A stretch of 48,965 bases of DNA, filler included, from Stramenopiles sp. TOSAG23-2 (lineage: Eukaryota): assembly GCA_900128395.1 (NCBI GenBank). It is 2 parts of 2 records of this genome, joined end to end, with 100 filler letters (N's around TTAATTAATTAA, not from the genome) between each part and the next. Parts side by side here need not be neighbours in the genome. Positions count along the whole stretch, not along the records: positions 1 to 24,433 come from LT649464.1; 1 more part is not named here. One strand, 5' to 3'. Position numbers and translations under genes: made by a program. This document shows positions 19,782 through 48,965 of the stretch, one piece after another. Under the pieces are notes generated by a model. It had not been told where the DNA came from and did no database searches. It saw only the letters and a program-made list of their open reading frames with translations. Position 1 is the first letter of the stretch, and the number at the start of each line of letters is the position of its first letter.

Positions 19782-20795
19782 CTATAATTTACTTTTACTA
19801 CTGAGTAACATACTTTGTTGAAAATTTTCCATATCTTTCATTTCTTGTTCAGTTGAACGTCTACGTTTTGCTGCATAACTTCTATATGCATTAATATAAA
19901 ATTCAGGAGTTTGGGAAGTTTCTTTCATAGATTCTCTTTTTCTAGAAGATTCCAACATATTTTTTAATTTACTAATTTCTTCGCAATTGTCTGGCAACAA
20001 AATAAAATTGCGATAAAATTTTAAATTTGTCGAAAACCGATCTAGAAATGGTATTAATGAAGTATCTGCTAAAGATATCTCATCACCAAATAAATATGGG
20101 CCATCAAGATCAAACTCACAAAACAGTTTGTTTGTTTCAACCATTTTTTTCCAAACCTTTGCAGCGATCTGTGTGTCAGTTTCTGGATTTTGATTCGATA
20201 ATAACTGATAGAAAGATGGGATAAGACCAATCGTTGCAACCTTTGCAATGTTTTGTCGCATTGTTGCTCTCTTCATAGTATCAGAGGGTATGATTTGAGA
20301 GTGATTTTTACTACCAAACTTTTGAAATAAATGCTCGGAGATAACATCATTTTCATATGTACCTTTCAATGCCATAAACGGTTCTGAATTGTCTAGCAAC
20401 GTCGGGATAGTTGCTATTGGAGATATATTTTCTTTGTACCAAACAGGCTTGTCATTACTAACCCAAAGCTGTCCACGCTCCGGTTTTTCAATAAAATCAA
20501 CATGTACGTATTCAATTGGCGCAGTCAACTCTTTAGCTACAATCCATGATCGATGGGCAAACGGGCATAGACCTATTATTATTATTACATTGATATATAT
20601 ATAGTTTAAGTTAGTTTGCAGTGACTTTGCATGGCTGAAAGGTTAGACGGGAGAGTTTTACTTACGGTTACTAACAAATTTCAAGCCAGTATTCAAATAA
20701 TGTATAGGCGCATTTTCTGCATTCGTCGCTGCAGTTATTTGTACTTGTGATGTCTCACAGCATTGTACTAAATCGTCCTTGTTGGTAGTAATCAT
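19782..20795 (-). CDS. Glutathione S-transferase, omega/lambda-like; two exons (20795-20666, 20572-19782), 306 aa
   Basis: Removing the GTAAGT...TAG intron restores NRLCPFAHRSW (CPF active site). Also KPVWY..ISP..TIPTL and GPYLFGDEISLADTSLIPFLDRF. Confidence 0.9.
20573..20665 (-). other. 93-bp spliceosomal intron in the GST gene
   Basis: Donor GTAAGT, CTAAC branch-like motifs, TAG acceptor; phase 1 restores the frame. Confidence 0.88.
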
Positions 20796-21117
20796 TCGGT
20801 TTCGTGAAAAACAAAATTGTTCATCAATGCATACGTATCTATCTAGCTACATATATAAAATAGATGTTTTTTGTTCTCTTTATTATTAATAATTTTGCTG
20901 GCCAGGCTGGCCAGCTTTGTTGCACCACCTTTTTGTGCTTTTAGTAGATTTAGGATGATTAAGGAGATAGCCTGGACGATCAGATGTAAATCGTATTAAT
21001 ACCAGAGAGGATACCTGCTATCCAGGCTATCCCCTAGCCAGGCCCATTTGGGCAGGCTAGGGGGAATTCCGGGTAAATTAAATACAATTGTAGAATATAA
21101 AATAGTTAAGTTTACTT

Positions 21118-21501
21118 TTAATCCCAACCAGATCGATCGCTATCAAAACTCTCTGCATCGGTATCTTCCTCATTTTCATCTAATTCGTTTTCCTCTGCAA
21201 CACTGCTATTCTCTCCTTCTTCCTCATCGTCGTCGCTAATTATAAAATCTTTTAAGGAACCTTCACTTCGACTATCACAACTTCTGTCTGATTTGGACAT
21301 TACAGATACACGTTCCGTTTCGTCGAAGTCAGAACAATTATCGTCATCCTTAAAAGTTCTGTCTCTATTTTCATTTGCTTGTTCATCTGAAAAACGAATT
21401 ATTGCTTTTTTGACTCGCTTTTTTACACGGTTATGCTCTTCCAGATTTTCTACTGTTAAATCCACGATCTTACGTTTATTTAAAACACTTTCAACGTTCA
21501 T
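21118..21501 (-). CDS. Small basic-then-acidic protein (127 aa), possibly viral
   Basis: ATG at 21501; KRVKKAIIRFSDE basic patch, GSLKDFIISDDD motif and acidic tail. Confidence 0.6.
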   Translation of the reverse strand: MNVESVLNKRKIVDLTVENLEEHNRVKKRVKKAIIRFSDEQANENRDRTFKDDDNCSDFDETERVSVMSKSDRSCDSRSEGSLKDFIISDDDEEEGENSSVAEENELDENEEDTDAESFDSDRSGWD

Positions 21502-21581
21502 AGTCTTGTTTCTTTGTTTTTTATTCGTTATCCCCAATATATAATGCTTTTTTTTGTCTTGAAACTGTTTTAGGAAGTGAC

Positions 21582-21788
21582 ATGGTAGAATTAACAGAAG
21601 AAGAATTTTCAAACTTAAAGGTGCCAAGCAGTGCTTCCAATTTAATTGATAGTGATGGAGAATTATGTTACGATTCAATTGAAGAATCTGAAGAAACACA
21701 TCTGCATAGTGTCATGGGTTTTCATGAACCTCCATTTCAACCATATCCTGAAAAACAAAGTTATTCTAAAAGTATATATAAGTATTAA
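21582..21788 (+). CDS. Small acidic ORF or exon (68 aa), possibly viral
   Basis: ATG ORF divergent from the 21501 ORF with only an 80-bp gap; coding-like composition. Confidence 0.45.
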   Translation: MVELTEEEFSNLKVPSSASNLIDSDGELCYDSIEESEETHLHSVMGFHEPPFQPYPEKQSYSKSIYKY

Positions 21789-21818
21789 TTTATTTGATGT
21801 ATTGAGACCAATAAACTA

Positions 21819-21850
<32 letters not shown>

Positions 21851-21913
21851 GTTTTTAACAGACTAACCAAACACATTTATTTACTAACCTTATGATTTTT
21901 ACTATACGTTTAG

Positions 21914-22123
21914 CTTTTGAAGAAACAATTACTTAATTTTAAACGCGTTGTGGTACACCCTAATAGAGGATTTCAACTACCAAAAATTGTGTATACTGGG
22001 AAATTTAAGGGAGGTCAGGATGACATTATAATGGCACTGACTATGGCAATATTTTTTACTATAGAATTTTGTACGGAAAGACTCGAAGGTGTTCCCTATG
22101 ATATGTTTGATGGTACTTCCTAA
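21914..22123 (+). CDS. Terminal exon resembling the C-terminus of herpesvirus/mirusvirus (Duplodnaviria) terminase large subunit nuclease domain
   Basis: LLKKQLLNFKRVV..IVYTGKFKGGQDDIIMALTMAIFF parallels the herpesviral pattern L.QL...Y(S/T)GK...DD..A..MA (recalled from UL15/UL89). It has no ATG at its 5' end and is preceded in phase 0 by TACTAAC (21882-21888) and TTTAG (acceptor ends at 21913). Confidence 0.7.
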   Translation, partial: LLKKQLLNFKRVVVHPNRGFQLPKIVYTGKFKGGQDDIIMALTMAIFFTIEFCTERLEGVPYDMFDGTS

Positions 22124-22131
22124 TTAATGTT

Positions 22132-22303
22132 ACAAAAAAACACTGGACATCCAATAAATTAGTATAGACGTAGCATTAGGTAAAAAACCATGAAATATAT
22201 ACAACGAGAATAGCACTAAGTGGCAATTTTACCATTTTTATTTTTCACAAAAAAAACACTGGTCATCCAATAAATTAGTATAGACGTAGCATTAGGTAAA
22301 AAA
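22132..22303. repeat. Direct repeat pair (~56 bp) with a 59-bp spacer
   Basis: acaaaaaaa(a)cactgg(a/t)catccaataaattagtatagacgtagcattaggtaaaaaa at 22132-22187 and 22247-22303. Confidence 0.9.
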
Positions 22304-22622
22304 ATCACACTTTTTTTTATTTAAATTACTAGTACTGCTTCTCTATTCATATGTACAGTATGTAAGTGTATATATATATATTATATATTTGTGTTTTGGA
22401 TGTATATATGTATTTATATTTCATTATTTTTTGTATTATATATATTTGTATATGATTTTATCTATTTTAAACTATGATCCGAAAGTATCCGGTTCAAGTG
22501 GGACTTATACATTTTTGTGTCTAGGGAGGTTTCCATTTTCTTTTCTACCGATTCTTACGTTCTATTTGTTTTTTTATTAAACGATAACACTTTATTTTAT
22601 ATTGGATTTTGTCAGCCAATAT

Positions 22623-24433
22623 TTAATATATTATTTCAACGCCATTCCTTTTCATGGACTTTTTCACGGACTTTAACATGTTTTTCGCTTTTTCTTTTAA
22701 ATCCCCCTTATCTTTATCCCAATCGCTGTAATTGCTTTTTAACGTAATACTTTTCAACGAGGTGTTGGCGTTGAATTTTAATGCATCTACTATTGCAATT
22801 ATTCCTGAATAATCACTTTTGAACTCAACTCCTTCTGGACAAAGACTTGTTTTTCTTCCATCTGTATGTCTAAATGGGTTATTGGTATTTGCAATATGTG
22901 TCCATCCACCACCTTTTGACATAAAGAGGTGACTATTTGATAAATCAATAGTTTTCAACGAGGTGTTGAACTTAAGGTCTAATGACAATAATTTACCATC
23001 TACAGGTTGCAAGTGATTCTTCTTTATCTCTGTTTCATCTTCTTTGATTCCACATACAGATTTTAAATTTTCACTTCCTTCAAACGCTATTTTTATTGCT
23101 TCAAATCCTTCCTCGGATATTTGGTTCTTTAACAAGTTAATACTTTTCAATGAGGTGTTGACCTTTATCATTTTTGCCAATTTTATTGCACCTACAGAAC
23201 TAAACAAATTACTTTCTAAATTTAATTCTTCCAACACACAATTCTTATTTTCTTGAATATTTTTTGCAATTATAGTTGCAACTTTATCATTAATTTTACT
23301 ATGTTCTAAACCAATATGTTTCAACGAGGTGTTGACCTTTAGCATTTCTACCAACGATCTTGCACCTTCAGCACCAATTAAATTCTTATTCAACTTAAAA
23401 ATTTTCAACGAAGTATTGACCTTTAGCATTTCTGCCAATGCTTTTGCACCTTCCTCCTCAATGTTTAAATTATGGCCTAAATTTAATTCTTCCAACACAC
23501 AATTCTTATTTTCTTGAATACCTTTTGCAATTGCACTTGCACCTTCATCACCTATGGAATTATCATATAAATTAATAATTTTCAACGAGGTGTTGACCTT
23601 TAGCATTTCTGCCAATGCTTTTCCACCTTCATCCTCAATTGCATTTTTTCTTAAATTTAATTCTTCCAACACACAATTCTCATTTTCTTGAATACCTTTT
23701 GCAATCGCAATTGCACCTTCCTCACGAATCCCCTCTCTGTACCTATTATATAAATTAATACTTTTCAACGAGGTGTTGACCTTTAATGCCTCTGCAATTG
23801 CAATTATTCCATCGAAACATACAATATAATCATCTTCTTCAGCCTTCCAATTTGCACCCTCATGTTCAACTATTTGTCCATTTATATATGGTAAGGTGGT
23901 CAATTGATTCCTTTCTACATGCTTACAAACTAAATTATTACTTGAAAAATTAATATTTTTCAACGAGGTATTGACCTTTAACGCATCTACAATTGCTATT
24001 ATTCCAGTTGCATCATACGTTCCGTTTTTATGGCTATCCAATCCACAAAGTTGATTTTCTGATAAATCAATATTTTTCAACGAGGCGTTGAACATAAGGT
24101 CTAATGCTACTAATTTTCCATCTACAGGTTGTAAATCATCATACGGCTTTGTTTCCAACCAATATTTACCCGAATTACCCGATAAATCTTTTTCTGTTTC
24201 ATCTTCTTTGATTCCACATACAGATTTTAAATTTTCATTTCCTCCAAACGCTATTTTTATTGCTTCTAATCCTTCATTGGCTATTTGGTTCCTTAACAAG
24301 TTGATACTTTTCAACGAGGTGTTGACCTTTATCATTTCTGCCAATGATTTTCCACCTTCATCCTTAATTTCATTACTACCTAAATTTAATTCTTCCAACA
24401 CACAATTCTTATTTTCTTGAATACCTTTTGCAA
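22623..24433 (-). CDS. RNI-like/NLRC3-type leucine-rich repeat protein, 5' end lost in the gap
   Basis: Repeated VLEELNL..N.I..EG..ALAEMLKVNTSLK.INL..N. The frame is open up to the N-run. Confidence 0.9.
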
Positions 24434-24533
24434 NNNNNNNNNNNNNNNNNNNNNNNNNNNNNNNNNNNNNNNNNNNNTTAATTAATTAANNNNNNNNNNN
24501 NNNNNNNNNNNNNNNNNNNNNNNNNNNNNNNNN
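24434..24533. other. Artificial 100-bp contig linker (N44-TTAATTAATTAA-N44)
   Basis: Palindromic 12-mer with stops in all six frames, centred between equal N-runs. The sequences on either side need not be contiguous. Confidence 0.9.
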
Positions 24534-27053
24534 GAGAAATATAAAGCATTAGTTGAAAGCCACAAATCAATGATAGGCATGGTTGCTCACAATAGTATGA
24601 AAGCAGAAAGAGAAGCTGTTGTAAAAAAACTGAAAGTAATGAAAGATATATTTCTTGGGAGTAATGAAGACGCAATGAAAATAATTGTAGAGCAGCTTGG
24701 TACTGGGGCAACAGAAGAGGTCAAATCGTTAGTGGATGTTGCAGTGCAGAAAATCACTACTGTGCAGGATAAACGAGAAAAAGCCACGGAGAGATGGCGT
24801 CAAATTAGACGTATATCGATGCCTCAATTAGAACACAATATGTCTAGAATTACCAACAGATTAGTCGAGCAAAAAAAAAAATCCGATGAATTCAATCAAA
24901 TGCGCGAAGTGATGGCACAACCTGTAACAAGCGCTGATCCTAGAGATGGGCATTTTGTAGAAGATTTTCATAAACACTCGCGTGCTATGCACGATAAATT
25001 TGCCGGGCAATTGAAGGATGCTAAAAAAGAAAATGAGGATTTGAATCAAACGATTGAAGATTTACGAGAGGACATAATTGATAAGAATGTACAAATGGAT
25101 GAATTAAACGCTACGATTACAAAATTAAAGGAAGAAGTAAGAACAAAAAGCGAATTGGAAGATGAAATTGTAATTCTTAAGGAGCAAATTTTAGGCTTGA
25201 ATTCGGAAAAAAAAAGGTTACTTTCGCATCATTCGCAAGAGACTACAAATTTCGAAGTTCAAATAGAAGGATTACGTGCTGATTTGAAACGCAATGAAGA
25301 AAAAATGGCAGAGGTAAATCAAGACGTTGCAGAGTTAACCGAAGAATATAAAAAAAAACAAACTTGAAAAACAAGATATGAAAAAAAGTTACGATGAACA
25401 GCAAAAAGCCATTCGGAATGTACAAATGAAATTATTGAACGCTACAAAGAAAAACGGAAAACGAAGTAGAAGAATGTCAATGGCGGCATTAGATTTACAA
25501 TGGCCGGCAGTTGAGAAAGCGGTGGATGATTTTCTTGATGAGCGGAAAAGGCTGGATAAGGATATCAAACGGAATGAAAATATGAAAAAAGAAGTTGACT
25601 CGACTAAAGCTAGAAATAGAAAGTGGGAACGTGAAATAGATGAAAAAAATGAAAAAACACAACATCAATTAGATGCATTGAAGCACCAACAACGTGAATT
25701 ACGAACCTTAAAAGAAGATTTAGATAATAGACAAGCAACTTTAAAGACGAATGAAGAGAAATATATGGAAAAAGATGTGATACTCAATCATAGAGAGCAA
25801 GATATCATTAAAACAGAAACGCATTTACACAATTTGGAAACTACATTGCAAGAGCAAAGCGAACAAAACGAGGAAGAACAAGAAAAGTTAAGAGCTGATT
25901 TAATGGATTTCCATAAACGCGAGCATAATTTGAAAGTACAATTTCTTAAAGTAGACGCGGCAACTGCAATACAGCGTGTTATAAGACAAGCATTATTACG
26001 CAAAGCCTCTTATAATTCGAAAAAAGTTTTGAAAAAATTAGCAGACGTCGAGGAAAAATCTAAGATAGTTGAAGCTCAGTTAGTTAAACAACGTGAGAAA
26101 AACGAGGATATTCATAGTAAAGAACTTCAATTAAATTTTCTGGAGGAAGATTTGAATAGAAGAAAACATGATATAGATGACCGTCAAGCTAGAATGGAAA
26201 AGTTACAAATCGATTTAAATAAACTTGAAAAGCAAGAGAAAAAGATTCAAGATGACTTAGATAAGCGTACGATGGAAGTTGCATCGGAGCAACAACAATT
26301 AAACGATTGGAGGCAAGACTTAGCAAAAAAAGATGCTGAAAATCGTGATTTGGAAAAACAATTATCAGAATTGAAAATTGAAGTTGATGAGAAATTAAAG
26401 AAACAACAGCAAGACTTTTTAGTTTTGGAACGGGAGAAAACAACATTAGCAGTGGAACGGAGTGCCATTAAAAGCAGAAAACAACAAATCGAAGAAATGA
26501 CTAAGAACAAATTAGCATTGAACGTGGTGAAATTAGAGATTCAAAAGCAAAATTAGGAGCAGTGGAAGTGGCATTGCGTTCTAGAGAAGAATCGGTAGAT
26601 AATAAATTGGCAAAATTAAGCAATATGAAAGTAGATATTGAGGAAAGAGAAGAGAAAGGAAAAGGAATAGCTGCCAAATTATCTCAATTAGAACGTAGAG
26701 AGCATTTATTATCAGAGTCAGAAAATGAATTTTATACAAGGAAAGCGGCAACGTTGGTTAAAAAATACAAAAATGAAATCAACAGTTTAGAAGAGCAATT
26801 AAATGCATCATGTGATTCGGTCACTCGGTACAAAAATAAAAATGCTGCGTTGACAAAGGAATTGACCGACTTAAGAAGGACATTGCAATCAAGTAAAGAG
26901 GAGGAATTTGGCATGTCCAGGGAAACTGCCATGAAAAGCTTAAATGAAGCAAGGTCATTGCTACGATCAATGCAAGATTCCATGCAAGAAAGTTCAAGTA
27001 GAAAAAATTACAAGACTACTCGTATTGCAGAAGTGATAAATGTAGAATTATGA
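24534..27053 (+). CDS. Long coiled-coil protein with one IQ-like motif; 5'-partial, split into three ORFs by two single-base frameshifts
   Basis: E/K/Q/L heptad composition runs through ORFs 24570-25367, 25378-26556 and 26562-27053. Breaks are at an A9 run (25350-25358) and near 26503. Contains AATAIQRVIR. Confidence 0.75.
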
Positions 27054-43620: not shown

Positions 43621-44198
43621 ATGCGCCGATCATTATTAAATCGAAGTACAAGCTACAGTGATAGTAGTAGTAGTAGTAGTAATAGTAGTAGTGATAGCAG
43701 CAGCAGCGCTTCAAGTTATGAAAGAAGTGATGAAGATGAAAGGTCCAGTGAGGAGGAGGAGCAGGATGAAACAAGACGAAGAAGAATGCGTTTAAGACGT
43801 CGTATTAGAAGTCATCGAGCTTCTGCACCAACACGGACTGCTAGTGAGGAGGCCCGGGAACGACGGACTAGGATAAGGTTGGCTAGGAGAAGAAATACGT
43901 CACGTGAAAATAATACAGAACGTCCACAAAGACGACAAAGTACTCGTACACAAAATATTCTTGCAAGAGTGAGGAGAAGAAGAGAATCAAGAATTAGTCC
44001 TTCAGAAGTTAACCAAATAATGGAACGACAACAACAAAGCAACAACAGCAATAATAGTGATAATAATGATGATGATGATGATAATAATAATAATAGGGAT
44101 GATGAAAGCAGTAGCGACAGCTACACCAGTTCCAGTAGTGATATCTTCGATGATACCGACCGCGAGGATGACGGAGATGTCCCACCACCACGGAGAAT
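43621..44198 (+). CDS. 5' part (Ser/Arg-rich) of the PH-domain gene, present here as an inverted copy cut at a junction
   Basis: MRRSLLNRSTS...DDTDREDDGDVPPPRR. 44144-44198 is the exact reverse complement of 48911-48965, where the frame continues into the PH ORF. Confidence 0.75.
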
Positions 44199-47100
44199 AA
44201 AACCCTCCTCGATTATTACCACTTGGTCGCTTTACCCTTGCTTGTTCTTTTGCTCTCATTATTTCCTCCTCTTCTTGCATCTTTTCTCTTGTAACTTTAC
44301 ATCGTTTTTTATATGCTAAGACTTTTTTTGCTTTATGTTTTCTAAACAATGATTGTAACTTCATGACAGCGCGTAATCGCAACATACGCCTATACATTAA
44401 ACCGTCTTTTTTAGATGGTTTCTTCGACCTACCCTTGCGGTATGCTTTTAAAGGGTCATCTCTTTCCTTATTTTCACCACGGCTACGATTGATTTTGCTA
44501 CGATTATTATTTCTACTATTATCACTACGACGAGATCCATTATTACGTGCTGACTTTCGTCCAACTGCTTTATTCGCTGGCCGTGTATTATTACTACTAC
44601 TTTTTCTTGCTGTCGGTCTATTTTTAAATTGATCTTTGCCTTTTTGAGCACCAAATTGATTCTTTTCGTCATCTAATTTAGCATATAATTCCATTTTATC
44701 GAATTCTAAACCTTGATCTCTTAAATTTTGCTCCATTGCTTTTTCATCATCTTTCCCAATGAACAAATCATTTTTAACCTCTTGTATCGTTTGTTTCCCA
44801 TCTTTCCCCGTCACGACTACACGGCGATTTGTAGTATTGGCAGTTTGCCCAGTACCACCAGAAATATGCCATGCATTTCTCATCATCAATTCCCAATAAT
44901 CGTCCCCGTCAATCGATGCACTTAAATTTTGATAGTATTGTACAAATTCCTCAAATGTTACGACACCGTCTTTATCTATCGTATCAAATTGAGATAAAAA
45001 TTCCGTTAAATATTCATCTGATTTGACTTTCCCCGTTTTTACGCTCGGATGATGATCTGCATCGTAATTATATTTCAAATCATCGATAGTACAAGTTCCG
45101 TCTCCATTTCGGTCCAACAGCTTAAATGCCATTTTCACAAACTTCATGCGCCTGGCATCCATCGGCGGGGCTAACGAAAGCACGAGCTCGTCAAAACTTA
45201 TCGATCCATTTCGATCGCGGTCAAAGACGGTCATGCAACTATCTACTTCTGTTAATGTCAATTCTACGCCGTAATCTTTCATCCCATTTTTAAATTCCTC
45301 CTTTGATAAACTTTTATTTCCATCGTCATCCATAATTTTCAACACTCTAGACAATGCATGTAAACCGTGTGAACCAGCTCTTGCTATTATCTTTTTACGT
45401 ATCTTATCGACAATATTGGAGGAACTTCCAACGGGAGCTACGCCACCAGTGGAAGAAGCGCCTTTTGAGCCACGGGAGCCGAAACGTCGAACCATCTCAT
45501 CATGCAAGTCACTGACATCGACTTGATTTGCCCCTAACGTAGCTGTTTGAGCAATTCTATCGCATGCTCTTTTATTCAAATTTGCACCCTTAATACTTTT
45601 AATTTTCAATGCAAACGTAGATGGAAACATTTTATCATCACTGACTGACATATTCATACCTAACTTTTGCATGAAAATCGGTAAATTTGCTGGCGGTGTA
45701 AATAAAATTTTACGTAAAATATCCCAATCAGTTGGAGCTTCCACTTTCGTTGATCCTGTTTTATTACTTGCGATTTTCACCTGTTGTCTTGTATTATTAC
45801 TACTACTTTTTCTTGCTGCCGGTCTATTTTTAAATTGATCTTTGCCTTTTTGAGCACCAAATTGATTCTTTTCGTCATCTAATTTAGCATATAATTCCAT
45901 TTTATCGAATTCTAAACCTTGATCTCTTAAATTTTGCTCCATTGCTTTTTCATCATCTTTCCCAATGAACAAATCATTTTTAACCTCTTGTATCGTTTGT
46001 TTCCCATCTTTCCCCGTCACGACTACACGGCGATTTGTAGTATTGGCAGTTTGTCCTTTGCCACCACTCATATGCCATGCATTTCTCATCATCAATTCAA
46101 AGAAATCCGTATTATCAATCGATGCACTTAAATTTTGGTAATATTGTTTCCATTCGTCCCATGTTACAATGCCATCTTTAACATCGGTTTCGAATTCATT
46201 CAAGTACTTAGTCAACCATTCATCTGGTTTCATTTTGCCTCGTTTCACTTCATCATGACCAGTTGGATCAACATTTAATTTCATATCCTCAATTGTAATG
46301 GTTCCATCTTGGTTATAATCCATTAAATCAAACGCTGCTTTGACCAGATCTAAGCGTCTTTGATTCATTGGCGGCGCCATGCCAAGTAGAAATTCATCAA
46401 TATCTACTGTGCCATCGTGGTTCCTATCAAAGTATGTCATAACCGCATCCAATTGCTTATTGCTTAAATCTATGCCATAATCACGCAATCCATATTTCAA
46501 TTCTTCTCGACTCAACACTTTATTGCCATTGTCATCCATGATTTTCAACACACGGCCCATTGCATGTATCCCATGCGATCCACCACGTTTTATAATCGCA
46601 GCTTTTACCTTTTCAATAATACTTTCGCCATGTGCATCGGCGGCAGCTGATTGTCCCCGTTTTGGTGTACCTATGGATTGCACTGCTTGGCGCCTTGAAC
46701 CGGATTTTAAGCTGTACTTGTCGTTGCCATGGTTCGACCGTCGACTACGTTGGCTGCCACGAACACTACCACCATCATAACCGCTACGTCTACTACTACG
46801 AATGCTTCCACCGCCACGAGCGCTAATTCGTCGGCTACTAGCATGGCTTGGCACTGGAGATTGCTCGGAGCGTCTTGATGATGCCCGTGTACTTTGAATT
46901 TGGGCTGCATCTTGCTGTACTTTTTCTGCAAACGTGCTTAGCGCCGGTTGTGTGCCTAGACGTGCTAAATTTCTGGGATTTAGACGTGCTGCACCTTGAC
47001 GAGCTAAAAAATCATTAAAGTAAGTTGAGCCAATCTTCATATCATTGCAGGTCACTTCACCTACTGGATTAAAGCTTAAACGTACGCTTTTTCCACGTCC

Positions 47101-48144: not shown

Positions 48145-48965
48145 TCATGAAGAAGGCAAGACAAACGATTTCACATTACTAAATGCTTGTAACCATCGAT
48201 AAAATACACTTGTGGAACTACAGGAAAAAGTCAATAATGTTACTAAATTATTGATGTTTGTATTATTAATTGGCTGTGCTTGTCGAACTAAAATGATATT
48301 TTTTCGTCCATAAGTTTCCACATCAGGAGTCAATGGCTGAATTCGTATATCAATTTTTGATAAATTGAATTCCTTATATGGAGTTGTATTATCTTCATCG
48401 TCTTTTGATATAGATAATAAGCCATTACTTATATCAAATTTCATAAAACGATGATGCCAACTTTCCCTACCCAACAACTTATTTTTCGCTAATTTATACA
48501 TCCATCCTGATATTATCGAATCATCATATGATAAATCATTTATAATAGTATTAGACGTATTGGCATTTGCTTGTATCATATTATCAACCTCATTAGGTGA
48601 AATTTGTTCAACAACAGTAGCTATTGGTATTGCATTATTATTATTATCATTATTTAAATTTGTTTTCTGTTCATCATCAGCAATGTCATTATTATCATTA
48701 GTGCTATAATTATTGTTATTATTATTATTGGATGGGTTGGGACGAGGTGATTCTTGGCTTGTAACAACCGCTGTATACGTTTCCGAGTTTTGAGGGGTAA
48801 GTTGTGATAATGCTTGAATGTTTTGAACTTTAATCAGATTATTATTATCACTTGATGATAGTCCGTCCCCTGTTGCTACACGAAACAAAGTTAATCCTAA
48901 GGATGGTTTAATTCTCCGTGGTGGTGGGACATCTCCGTCATCCTCGCGGTCGGTATCATCGAAGA
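48145..48965 (-). CDS. C-terminal PH-domain protein (runs off the window end)
   Basis: ISGWMYKLAKNKLLGRESWHHRFM...FSCSSTSVFYRWLQAF. The frame is open to the window end. Confidence 0.85.
   Translation of the reverse strand, partial: FDDTDREDDGDVPPPRRIKPSLGLTLFRVATGDGLSSSDNNNLIKVQNIQALSQLTPQNSETYTAVVTSQESPRPNPSNNNNNNNYSTNDNNDIADDEQKTNLNNDNNNNAIPIATVVEQISPNEVDNMIQANANTSNTIINDLSYDDSIISGWMYKLAKNKLLGRESWHHRFMKFDISNGLLSISKDDEDNTTPYKEFNLSKIDIRIQPLTPDVETYGRKNIILVRQAQPINNTNINNLVTLLTFSCSSTSVFYRWLQAFSNVKSFVLPSS

What the first reader, a model, noticed from the sequence alone, without database searches (positions are those of the whole stretch)
21800..22123. Spliced herpesvirus/mirusvirus-type terminase exon in a protist sequence
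Seen: an ORF lacking a 5' ATG, LLKKQLLNFKR..VYTGKFKGGQDDIIMALTMAIFF, starting in phase 0 right after a textbook TACTAAC branch point (21882) and TTTAG acceptor (21913), with a (CTA)n tract upstream. Known: the RNase H-like nuclease of herpesviral terminase (HSV UL15/HCMV UL89) ends in QL...YSGK/YSAK...DDL..A..MA (recalled from memory), and the DD supplies a catalytic Asp. Mirusviruses are Duplodnaviria of protists with herpes-related terminases, reported as endogenous in thraustochytrids and as intron-bearing. Inference: last exon of an intron-containing mirusvirus-like packaging gene, pointing to a nucleus-replicating virus of this host. The upstream ATPase exons are not in the window, and the preceding 68-aa ORF does not look like terminase.
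Basis: partly seen in the sequence, partly recalled or inferred. Interest (0 to 1): 0.8.

Follow-up and report, generated by a model that had tools for sequence, protein, structure and literature searches.

The report
Mirusvirus terminase exon fragment in protist
A marine protist chromosome carries a roughly 1 kb scrap of giant-virus DNA that includes the intact last exon of a mirusvirus DNA-packaging gene, which is a likely trace of past infection and not a working gene.

Summary
The 69-codon frame at 21914-22123(+) is a true homologue of the last 64 residues of large terminases found on giant marine viral contigs. A profile of 89 full-length relatives matches it at E 6.6e-19, on profile positions 513-576 of 577. 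It keeps the invariant G-K...D-D motif and the natural stop.

A related metagenome contig (L001) has the same layout: upstream ORF, AATAAA, CTA/CTG repeat, CTACTAAC, TTTAG, exon. Of 18 exon differences, 16 are synonymous (dN/dS 0.025, P 1.8e-9). So it has evolved as a protein-coding exon preceded by an intron 3' end.

No other terminase piece lies anywhere in the 49 kb, and every neighbouring gene is cellular. Marine metagenome contigs hold 21074-21572 and 21572-22129 separately, each with flanks unlike the window's. A second small run of the same organism bridges the outer junctions as the window does.

My best reading (0.68) is a two-piece, 1,056-nt endogenous fragment of an intron-bearing mirusvirus-like genome. 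It cannot work as a terminase here. It does link this protist lineage to such a virus. This is a new member of a known kind.

The parts
21074..21572 (.). Piece A: 499-nt foreign segment, the left half of the insertion
   Evidence: Metagenome contigs X3 record 11 and X4 record 15 (16,953 nt) match exactly this span with 18 differences, then run on unlike at both 21074 and 21572. X2 record 1 bridges 21074 as the window does, with 0 differences.
21121..21504 (-). Acidic 128-codon ORF inside piece A, function unknown
   Evidence: ORF list. No Pfam family. No relative in IMG/VR. A polyA metatranscriptome contig covers 21235-21385 with 8 differences.
21572..22129 (+). Piece B: 558-nt segment of mirusvirus-like DNA holding the ORF1 remnant, the intron 3' end and the terminase terminal exon
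   Evidence: X3 record 12 and X4 record 16 match this span with 7-8 differences. Both run on unlike before 21572, and X4 record 16 also runs on unlike behind 22129. X2 record 3 bridges 22129 as the window does. L001 aligns from about 21584 to about 22129.
21582..21788 (+). ORF1 remnant (68 codons plus stop): the 3' part of a longer acidic ORF of the virus-like element
   Evidence: In L001 the homologous ORF is at least 136 codons long and open at its 5' end. There is no Pfam or PHROG match. A crude pN/pS is about 1.1.
21810..21815 (+). AATAAA after the ORF1 stop, inside a block (GAGACCAATAAA) conserved in L001. It may be a polyadenylation signal.
   Evidence: The function is inferred.
21820..21850 (+). 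(CTA)n microsatellite
   Evidence: L001 has (CTG)n(CTA)n at the same place. The metagenome contigs show gaps here.
21882..21888 (+). TACTAAC, a branch-point-like motif 25 nt before the acceptor
   Evidence: It is conserved as CTACTAACCTTATGA in L001. It fits the WCTAAC branch consensus reported for some mirusvirus introns (PMC12768974, passages read). It is not enriched in the window.
21909..21913 (+). TTTAG, an acceptor-like site whose TAG also closes the frame upstream
   Evidence: It is identical in L001. It is the only AG that opens the homologous frame with the whole match in it. Its use in splicing is not shown.
21914..22123 (+). Terminal exon of a mirusvirus-type large terminase: the last 64 or so residues of the RNase H-like nuclease, plus the stop codon
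   Evidence: Profile E 6.6e-19 on positions 513-576 of 577. Q5, G29, K30, D36 and D37 are invariant in 23 sequences. dN/dS against L001 is 0.025.
22019..22024 (+). Codons for D36-D37 (GAT GAC), the DD motif that aligns with the DD of HSV-1 pUL15 and T4 gp17
   Evidence: Alignments. That one of these Asp residues binds the catalytic metal is recalled knowledge and was not tested here.

Best explanation
The 69-codon frame is the genuine 3'-terminal exon of a mirusvirus-type large terminase. By the model of a relative, it encodes the end of a helix, the last two strands, and the final helix that starts with the DD motif of the RNase H-like nuclease.

In the virus, this exon is presumably joined to upstream exons by the host spliceosome, using CTACTAAC as branch point and TTTAG as acceptor.

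In this window it exists only as part of a 558-nt scrap (piece B, 21572-22129). That scrap also holds the 3' part of an acidic ORF and the 3' end of the intron. It is fused to a second 499-nt scrap (piece A, 21074-21572) that sits in a different sequence context in environmental contigs. The 1,056-nt composite lies between a GST-like gene and an LRR gene of a cellular eukaryote.

The most likely origin is capture of two pieces of viral DNA at a chromosome break in an infected cell that survived.

- **Shown:** homology, selection on the exon, conserved layout in L001, absence of the rest of the gene from the window, cellular neighbours, different flanks in the environment, and the outer junctions confirmed in a second run.
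- **Inferred:** the mechanism of capture, actual splicing in the virus, and lack of function here.
For: **The exon is a terminase exon**
- 26 proteins at E<=1e-3; 26 of 26 map back only to 21878-22120.
- A profile of 89 full-length relatives gives E 6.6e-19 on its last 64 positions.
- The G-K...D-D motif is invariant.

**The family is a large terminase**
- A profile of 63 relatives hits T4 gp17 at 5.8e-8 and HSV-1 pUL15 at 3.5e-6.
- The AlphaFold model of P0048 (pLDDT 83) is closest to HSV-1 terminase 6m5u_A (4.6e-20), then T4 gp17 (2.4e-19).
- P0039 carries the P-loop TPRRFGKT.

**It is of the giant marine virus type, not phage**
- The best phage TerL is 21% identical.
- Relatives sit on contigs up to 478 kb and on 24 IMG/VR loci from contigs up to 372 kb. 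Several of these have split genes.

**It has behaved as an exon**
- L001 has the same ORF1 / AATAAA / repeat / CTACTAAC / TTTAG / exon layout.
- 16 of 18 exon differences are synonymous, dN/dS 0.025, binomial P 1.8e-9.

**It is a fragment here**
- The next best six-frame piece in the 49 kb scores E 0.37.
- 14 of the 19 larger window ORFs scanned have Pfam matches, and all of those are cellular families (proteasome ATPase, calpain, PDE, GST, PTH2, LRR, kinase, EF-hand and others). The other 5 had no match.
- X3 and X4 contigs carry A and B apart and run on unlike at 21074, 21572 and 22129. L001 runs on unlike after the stop.

**The junctions are real**
- Contigs from run X2 (another sample of the same coded organism) bridge 21074 (574/92 nt) and 22129 (99/48 nt) with 0 differences.
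Against: - The A|B junction at 21572 is bridged in X2 by only 16 nt on one side. That is below the tool's 31-nt rule.
- X1 and X2 come from one study, and I cannot show that they are independent cells.
- The exon is perfectly intact, has its acceptor-like site and its stop, and lies 98.6% identical to environmental copies. So use in trans cannot be excluded from sequence alone.
- No whole genome is held, so other viral genes or exons may lie elsewhere in this organism.
- That piece A is viral rests only on its different context in the metagenome contigs. It has no recognisable viral gene.
- The mirusvirus label is by inference. I saw no MCP or portal on any contig and built no tree with reference mirusviruses or herpesviruses.
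Confidence: 0.68

Rival explanations
1. One reading: the exon is a working last exon of an intact resident (integrated or episomal) mirusvirus terminase gene. Its other exons lie outside the window and are joined by very long-range cis-splicing or by trans-splicing.
For: - The exon is intact, with a conserved branch-point-like motif and acceptor-like site, and has been under purifying selection.
- Mirusvirus terminases are reported with up to 20 introns, and with ATPase and nuclease halves trans-spliced from about 30 kb apart (PMC12768974, passages read).
- IMG/VR relatives L019, L020, L021 and L023-L025 are visibly split.
Against: - No other terminase piece lies in the 49 kb on either strand.
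- Cellular genes fill both flanks.
- The virus-type sequence is cut inside ORF1 and 6 nt past the stop, where environmental copies continue differently.
- The selection signal could have accrued entirely in viral lineages before insertion.
- The published trans-splice sites lie near Walker B, not 64 residues from the end.
- None of the 24 IMG/VR loci is split at profile position 512/513.
Confidence: 0.12
2. Assembly or amplification chimera: DNA of a virus present in or on the sorted cell was joined to host DNA in vitro or by the assembler, so there is no integration.
For: - The runs that hold the window are very small (17-21 million letters), as for amplified single cells.
- The window has homopolymer frameshifts and N gaps.
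- The A|B junction has only weak independent support.
Against: - X2, a different sample, bridges both outer junctions with identical sequence and carries the window's alleles, not the metagenome's, at 21105-21136.
- Random chimeras should not recur at the same nucleotide in two samples.
Confidence: 0.1
3. Exapted host element: the fragment is kept by the host. It might make a small chimeric protein (for example ORF1 codons 1-13 spliced at AAG|GT 21620/21621 to 21914), or serve as a source of antiviral small RNA against the virus.
For: - The open frame survives in an AT-rich genome.
- In-frame donor candidates exist at 21585, 21621 and 21711.
- The window's own form, with II at residues 38-39 and its own flanks, recurs with 0 differences in run X2, a second sample of the same coded organism, over the stretches X2's contigs cover, including the end of the exon (22030-22177).
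Against: - No RNA contig covers the exon.
- The environmental RNA contig that covers ORF1 carries the non-window upstream flank.
- 98.6% identity to environmental copies means the frame may simply be too young to have decayed.
- 64 residues holding one of three catalytic acids cannot form the nuclease fold.
Confidence: 0.05
4. Chance open frame, or tailed-phage/bacterial contamination.
For: Pfam alone is sub-threshold, and the single peptide against PDB is not significant.
Against: - E 6.6e-19 to the family profile.
- dN/dS 0.025 against L001.
- The best phage TerL is 21% identical to the family.
- The contig is eukaryotic throughout.
Confidence: 0.01

Closest known systems
Mirusviricota large terminase genes with spliceosomal introns, intron-harboured genes and trans-splicing (PMC12768974; passages read)
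   Same: - Herpes-like terminase found on giant marine viral contigs.
- Exon preceded by a WCTAAC-type branch motif and an AG acceptor.
- An ORF lies inside, or just before, the last intron.
- Relatives have halves that start near Walker B (P0034, P0040; L023-L025).
   Different: - Here only the last 64 codons are present, inside a host chromosome.
- The split position (profile 512/513) was seen in none of the 24 IMG/VR relatives I examined.
- ORF1 is acidic and low in complexity. I could not compare it with MING-1 or the homing endonucleases, because supplements are closed and no such sequence is held.
Integrated mirusvirus genes and genome fragments in eukaryotic assemblies (PMC10827195, passages read; thraustochytrid integrant and episome, PMC12606086 and bioRxiv 10.1101/2023.06.15.545109, search listings only)
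   Same: Viral DNA of this phylum lies inside a protist chromosome and is used as evidence of host range.
   Different: - Those reports concern whole or large viral regions, or marker genes.
- This is a 1 kb, two-piece scrap holding 11% of one gene.
- A screen based on MCP or full-length markers would probably miss it.
Herpesvirus terminase ATPase/nuclease subunit (HSV-1 pUL15, HCMV pUL89; PDB 6m5r/6m5u, 4iox, 3n4p)
   Same: - Best structural match of the family model.
- The Y-[ST]-G-K...DD-[LI]...A motif aligns.
- The gene is spliced in herpesviruses (recalled).
   Different: - Only 12-16% identity over the fold.
- T4 gp17 scores almost as well.
- The herpesvirus intron lies in the ATPase part (recalled), not before the last 64 residues.
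Phage T4 gp17 large terminase
   Same: - Same two-domain architecture.
- The ATPase domain matches at E 5.8e-8, and the C-terminal DD motif aligns.
   Different: - 21% identity at best to T4-like phage TerL.
- No introns of the spliceosomal type.
- Bacterial host.

Membership tests
Large terminase (TerL) of Duplodnaviria | Significant sequence similarity to full-length terminases | tested here: met
   Profile of 89 full-length relatives: E 6.6e-19, positions 513-576 of 577. The family profile hits T4 gp17 at 5.8e-8 and HSV-1 pUL15 at 3.5e-6.
Large terminase (TerL) of Duplodnaviria | N-terminal ATPase domain with Walker A and B encoded at the locus | tested here: not met
   Absent from all six frames of the 49 kb. 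Present in relatives such as P0039, P0048 and the A3 alignment.
Large terminase (TerL) of Duplodnaviria | Complete RNase H-like nuclease with its three acidic metal ligands | tested here: not met
   Only the last segment with the DD motif is present. The DPNGGG and ESNLG motifs of relatives have no counterpart in the window.
Large terminase (TerL) of Duplodnaviria | Terminase fold | tested here: met
   Met for the family, not for the fragment. The model of P0048 (pLDDT 83) matches 6m5u_A at 4.6e-20 and T4 gp17 at 2.4e-19.
Mirusviricota terminase | Closest relatives lie on large eukaryotic-virus contigs and are far from phage TerL | tested here: met
   57-59% identity to P0003 and P0005. The family sits on contigs up to 478 kb and on IMG/VR contigs up to 372 kb. 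The best phage hit is 21% identical.
Mirusviricota terminase | Spliceosomal intron processing of the gene | tested here: inconclusive
   CTACTAAC and TTTAG are conserved in the window and in L001, and an in-frame stop lies just upstream. No RNA contig covered the junction. TACTAAC is not enriched.
Mirusviricota terminase | Groups with mirusvirus references in a tree with herpesvirus and phage terminases | not tested
Mirusviricota terminase | Same genome encodes mirusvirus HK97-type MCP, portal and triplex | not testable with these tools
   No whole genome is held. The metagenome contigs behind X3, X4 and P0029 could not be fetched.
Endogenous viral element (fragment) | Virus-derived DNA flanked by host genes on one molecule | tested here: met
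   A GST-like gene (19785-20642) and an LRR gene (22626-24431) flank it. All window ORFs with Pfam matches are cellular families.
Endogenous viral element (fragment) | Host-virus junctions confirmed in independent data | tested here: met
   X2 contigs bridge 21074 and 22129 with 0 differences. 21572 is bridged by only 16 nt, which is weak. The independence of X2 from the source sample is taken from its coded label only.
Endogenous viral element (fragment) | The same sequence exists elsewhere in its native, different context | tested here: met
   X3 and X4 contigs and L001 carry it with other flanks.

The most novel reading that the evidence does not exclude
In the living virus, represented by L001 and the X3/X4 contigs, the last 64 codons of the terminase are set apart from the rest of the gene by at least 0.5-0.8 kb. 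That spacer holds a fast-evolving acidic ORF with its own AATAAA.

This would be either a gene-carrying spliceosomal intron or a second trans-splice site. Its position (profile 512/513) was seen in none of the 24 IMG/VR relatives examined and is not mentioned in the passages I read.

The host-borne copy keeps a splice-competent acceptor plus exon. It could therefore still enter viral or host transcripts during infection, as a decoy, a spare part, or a template for small RNA.
Probability: 0.2. Interest if true: 0.6.

Novelty: new member of a known kind. Interest (0 to 1): 0.45.

Why it matters
**A host link.** Hosts of most marine mirusviruses are unknown. A confirmed viral scrap inside the chromosome of an uncultured marine protist, 98.6% identical to copies found in marine metagenome contigs with other flanks, gives a direct virus-host link. 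It points to an intron-bearing, and so probably nucleus-dependent, virus.

**A gap in current screens.** Kilobase-sized, multi-piece insertions can hold a perfectly preserved exon. Screens that look for capsid genes or whole viral regions would overlook them.

**A possible new gene layout.** The conserved layout in L001 hints at an intron or trans-splice position near the end of the nuclease domain, with an ORF in front of it. This is worth checking against the published intron catalogue.

**Otherwise known.** Integration of mirusvirus DNA and intron-rich terminases are both already described.

Tried and rejected
**Searches that found nothing**
- PHROGs gave nothing for the peptide or for ORF1.
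- The word-indexed search for longer relatives of the peptide found none. The exhaustive search was needed.
- IMG/VR holds no close relative of the peptide, of the acidic ORF of piece A, or of the L001 downstream ORF.
- The word-indexed search with L001 ORF1 found none, near lengths only. The exact sequences of the piece A ORF and of ORF1 are not in the protein collection.
- Pfam gave nothing for the L001 ORFs.
- Rfam and tRNA scans of 20000-23000 and of the window found nothing meaningful.
- This scan's earlier notes hold nothing on this genome or this sequence.
- No whole genome is held, so MCP, portal and the other exons could not be sought.

**RNA and depth**
- The one RNA run laid (X20) gave contigs only over 21235-21385 and 21572-21698. 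Nothing covered the exon or its acceptor, so it says nothing about splicing or expression of the exon.
- Depths of the metagenome contigs are higher for A and B (16.1 and 14.1) than for the host flank (3.4) in X4. This fits a virus or a multicopy element, but the tool warns against ranking by contig depth, so I give it no weight.

**ORF1 as a terminase exon: rejected**
- It has no profile match.
- The GT sites nearest its stop codon (21760, 21772, 21782) are out of frame with 21914. Only 21585, 21621 and 21711 are in frame.

**Other ideas rejected**
- I took the ORF breaks at 25340 and 26510 for possible host introns to learn the host's splice signals. They are A-run frameshifts.
- The flanks are not copies of a repeat elsewhere in the window; I found only microsatellite matches.

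Full report
**1. What is in the sequence**

Bases 21914-22123(+) are a stop-to-stop frame of 69 codons plus TAA. The frame has no ATG until residue 40. It is closed upstream by a TAG whose AG is the end of TTTAG (21909-21913). TACTAAC lies at 21882-21888, a (CTA)n tract at about 21820-21850, and a 68-codon ORF1 at 21582-21788. TACTAAC by itself is not remarkable: there are 8 copies in the window against 5.6 expected, and 18 of 100 shuffles reach 8.

**2. Is it terminase?**

Single-sequence tests were weak:
- Pfam DNA_pack_C scored E 0.0033, at 16.9 bits against a cut-off of 22.8. It covered profile positions 301-341 of 349.
- PHROGs gave nothing.
- Against PDB sequences, UL15 scored E 0.58-1.7, behind a chance phycoerythrin hit.
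- The word-indexed search for longer proteins found none.

The exhaustive phmmer search settled it. It found 26 proteins at E<=1e-3, of which 11 were at E<=1e-10. In the longer ones the match lies at the very C-terminus.

Their cluster mates and relatives are proteins of 560-640 residues:
- 211 proteins scored E<=1e-3 with P0034 as query, among 1,055 candidates.
- Many carry PF03237 (Terminase_6N).
- Some lie on contigs up to 478 kb.
- P0039 shows the P-loop TPRRFGKT.

In a 23-sequence alignment the window peptide keeps every invariant column: Q5, G29, K30, D36 and D37. It ends where the relatives end.

Profile and fold comparisons agree:
- A profile of A1 hits HSV-1 pUL15 at the Y-T-G-K...DD motif (E 0.0047).
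- A profile of 63 full-length relatives hits T4 gp17 (5.8e-8) and HSV-1 pUL15 (3.5e-6, two stretches). The gp17 alignment puts the DD on gp17's own DD.
- An AlphaFold model of relative P0048 (mean pLDDT 83, pTM 0.55) is closest to the HSV-1 terminase (6m5u_A at 4.6e-20, 6m5r_A at 1.4e-19). T4 gp17 follows at 2.4e-19. The HCMV and HSV nuclease domains match at TM 0.65-0.70 on the target.

The family is therefore a large terminase. Herpesvirus pUL15 is the closest solved structure, though only narrowly ahead of T4.

It is not a phage gene. The best of 327 phage records is 21% identical. The window peptide is 57-59% identical to the marine proteins P0003 and P0005.

In the model, the segment that corresponds to the window exon (residues about 510-573) is the end of a helix, two strands and the final helices. 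It cannot fold or cut DNA on its own.

**3. Is the rest of the gene here?**

No.
- tblastn of all 26 homologues against the window gave 26 of 26 hits at 21878-22120. Nothing better than E 0.019 appeared elsewhere.
- An HMM of 89 full-length relatives (577 positions) against 2,599 six-frame pieces of the window hit only this frame (E 6.6e-19, positions 513-576). The next piece scored E 0.37.

Nineteen larger ORFs of the window were scanned against Pfam. Fourteen have matches, and all of those are cellular families:
- dynein-stalk-like protein
- SAM/ankyrin/IQ protein
- proteasome AAA ATPase
- PTH2
- calpain
- phosphodiesterase
- GST
- LRR protein
- M64/SPRING-domain protein
- DUF4485 protein
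- protein kinase
- EF-hand/CCDC81 protein
- PH-domain protein

The other five ORFs had no match. The terminase piece sits in the 1.98 kb between a GST-like gene and an LRR gene.

**4. Evidence that it is, or was, an exon**

The one metagenome locus found, L001 (1,262 nt), carries a diverged copy with the same layout. In order it has:
- a longer ORF1 (at least 136 codons, open at the contig end) and its stop
- a conserved GAGACCAATAAA block
- (CTG)n(CTA)n
- CTACTAACCTTATGA
- TTTAG
- the 69-codon frame and its stop
- then unrelated DNA with an ORF on the other strand

.

The two exon copies differ at 18 of 210 nt. Sixteen differences are synonymous and two are I to V. This gives dS 0.49, dN 0.012 and dN/dS 0.025. 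The chance of at least 16 of 18 being synonymous under neutrality is 1.8e-9.

ORF1 shows no such constraint (crude pN/pS about 1.1), although its gaps come in multiples of three.

So the frame has been a translated exon over the history that separates the two copies, and an intron 3' end is conserved in front of it. In L001 no other terminase exon lies in the 534 nt upstream.

The WCTAAC branch consensus, gene-carrying spliceosomal introns and trans-splicing of terminase are all published for mirusviruses (PMC12768974; passages read).

Among the 24 IMG/VR loci with relatives, splits occur at several places:
- at profile positions 391/392 (L019, L020, L025)
- at positions 222 and 311 (L021)
- as C-terminal parts that begin at positions 209-229 (L023-L025)
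- none at 512/513

**5. Why it is a fragment here**

I laid contigs of four public runs on 20500-23200.

*Marine metagenomes X3 and X4*
- They hold 21074-21572 (piece A, 18 differences) on one contig and 21572-22129 (piece B, 7-8 differences plus repeat-length gaps) on another.
- The piece A contigs run on with sequence unlike the window at both 21074 and 21572.
- The piece B contigs run on unlike before 21572. The X4 contig also runs on unlike behind 22129, while the X3 contig ends 3 nt past 22129.
- Their exon variants match the database proteins. X3 carries VV, as in P0002 and P0028. X4 carries IV, as in P0029.

*PolyA metatranscriptome X20*
- One contig covers 21572-21698 with the metagenome-type upstream sequence, not the window's.
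- Another contig covers 21235-21385.

*Run X2, a second small run of the same coded organism*
- It has the window's arrangement.
- One contig bridges 21074 (574 nt on one side, 92 on the other, 0 differences, window alleles at 21105-21136).
- Another bridges 22129 (99 and 48 nt).
- A 159-nt contig crosses 21572 by only 16 nt.

The window therefore holds two non-adjacent pieces of a foreign genome, joined at 21572 and set into host DNA at 21074 and 22129. Piece B is cut inside ORF1 and 6 nt after the terminase stop. Base composition does not mark the pieces out: GC is 0.32-0.33, and GC3 is 0.16-0.27, like the host genes.

**6. Explanation and rivals**

*Best reading (0.68).* This is a young endogenous viral fragment. 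Two scraps of an intron-bearing mirusvirus-like genome were captured between host genes. They preserve an intact but functionless terminal terminase exon.

*Rivals.*
- **A working exon of a resident virus, joined over a long range or in trans (0.12).** The missing exons, the cellular flanks and the truncations weaken this reading. They do not exclude it, because no genome is held and no RNA covered the exon.
- **An amplification or assembly chimera (0.10).** The recurrence of both outer junctions in X2 weakens this.
- **Host exaptation (0.05).** In-frame donor candidates exist, but there is no supporting RNA.
- **Chance, or phage contamination (about 0.01).** Refuted.

**7. Comparison and novelty**

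Integrated mirusvirus DNA in eukaryotes is known (PMC10827195, passages read; other papers seen only as search listings). Intron-rich, split terminase genes are also known (PMC12768974).

Two notes of this scan on other genomes describe split mirusvirus terminases. They agree in kind, and I did not test them.

This is a new member of a known kind. Its value is a host link for an uncultured marine protist, and a hint of an unlisted split position with an ORF in front of the last exon. The paper's supplementary intron tables, which I could not open, may already cover that position.

Noticed in passing
window 22134-22187 and 22250-22303: Two 54-nt direct repeats, 98% identical and 116 nt apart, begin 5 nt to the right of the insertion's right junction. 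They are present in run X2. They have no other copy in the window and no Rfam match above noise.
   Followed up: partly
window 20880-21073: A 194-nt block with 46% GC sits in a 34% GC window. It is rich in GGCCAGGC / GCCTGG-type motifs and lies directly left of the insertion. It has no Rfam or tRNA match. I could not tell whether it is host DNA or a third foreign piece.
   Followed up: partly
window 25340-25367 and 26505-26556: A long coiled-coil gene (about 24534-27053, + strand) changes frame twice at runs of A. These look like homopolymer length errors of the assembly, not introns.
   Followed up: partly
window 44144-44209 and 48900-48965: A 66-nt inverted duplicate, 97% identical, encodes FDDTDREDDGDVPPPRRIKPS in both places. 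One copy lies at the very end of the window.
   Followed up: no
window about 490-570 and 24432-24485: Runs of N (assembly gaps). The second lies at the start of the LRR gene and abuts the next gene.
   Followed up: no
L019, L020, L025 (IMG/VR loci); L021; L023-L025: Relatives of the terminase on viral contigs are split at profile positions 391/392 in three loci and at 222 and 311 in one locus. In three loci, C-terminal parts begin at positions 209-229, near Walker B. This fits the published trans-splicing.
   Followed up: partly
P0011 and P0012 (metagenome proteins): P0011 reads like a gene call that runs through an intron ending a few residues downstream of the window's exon start (...LTNKSFF|SFKRV). 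Its relative P0012 is continuous there. This hints at a nearby intron in another lineage. No DNA was available to check it.
   Followed up: no
L001 801-1262 (- strand): An open 153-codon frame on the other strand lies downstream of the terminase exon. It has no Pfam match and no IMG/VR relative. It is absent from the window.
   Followed up: partly
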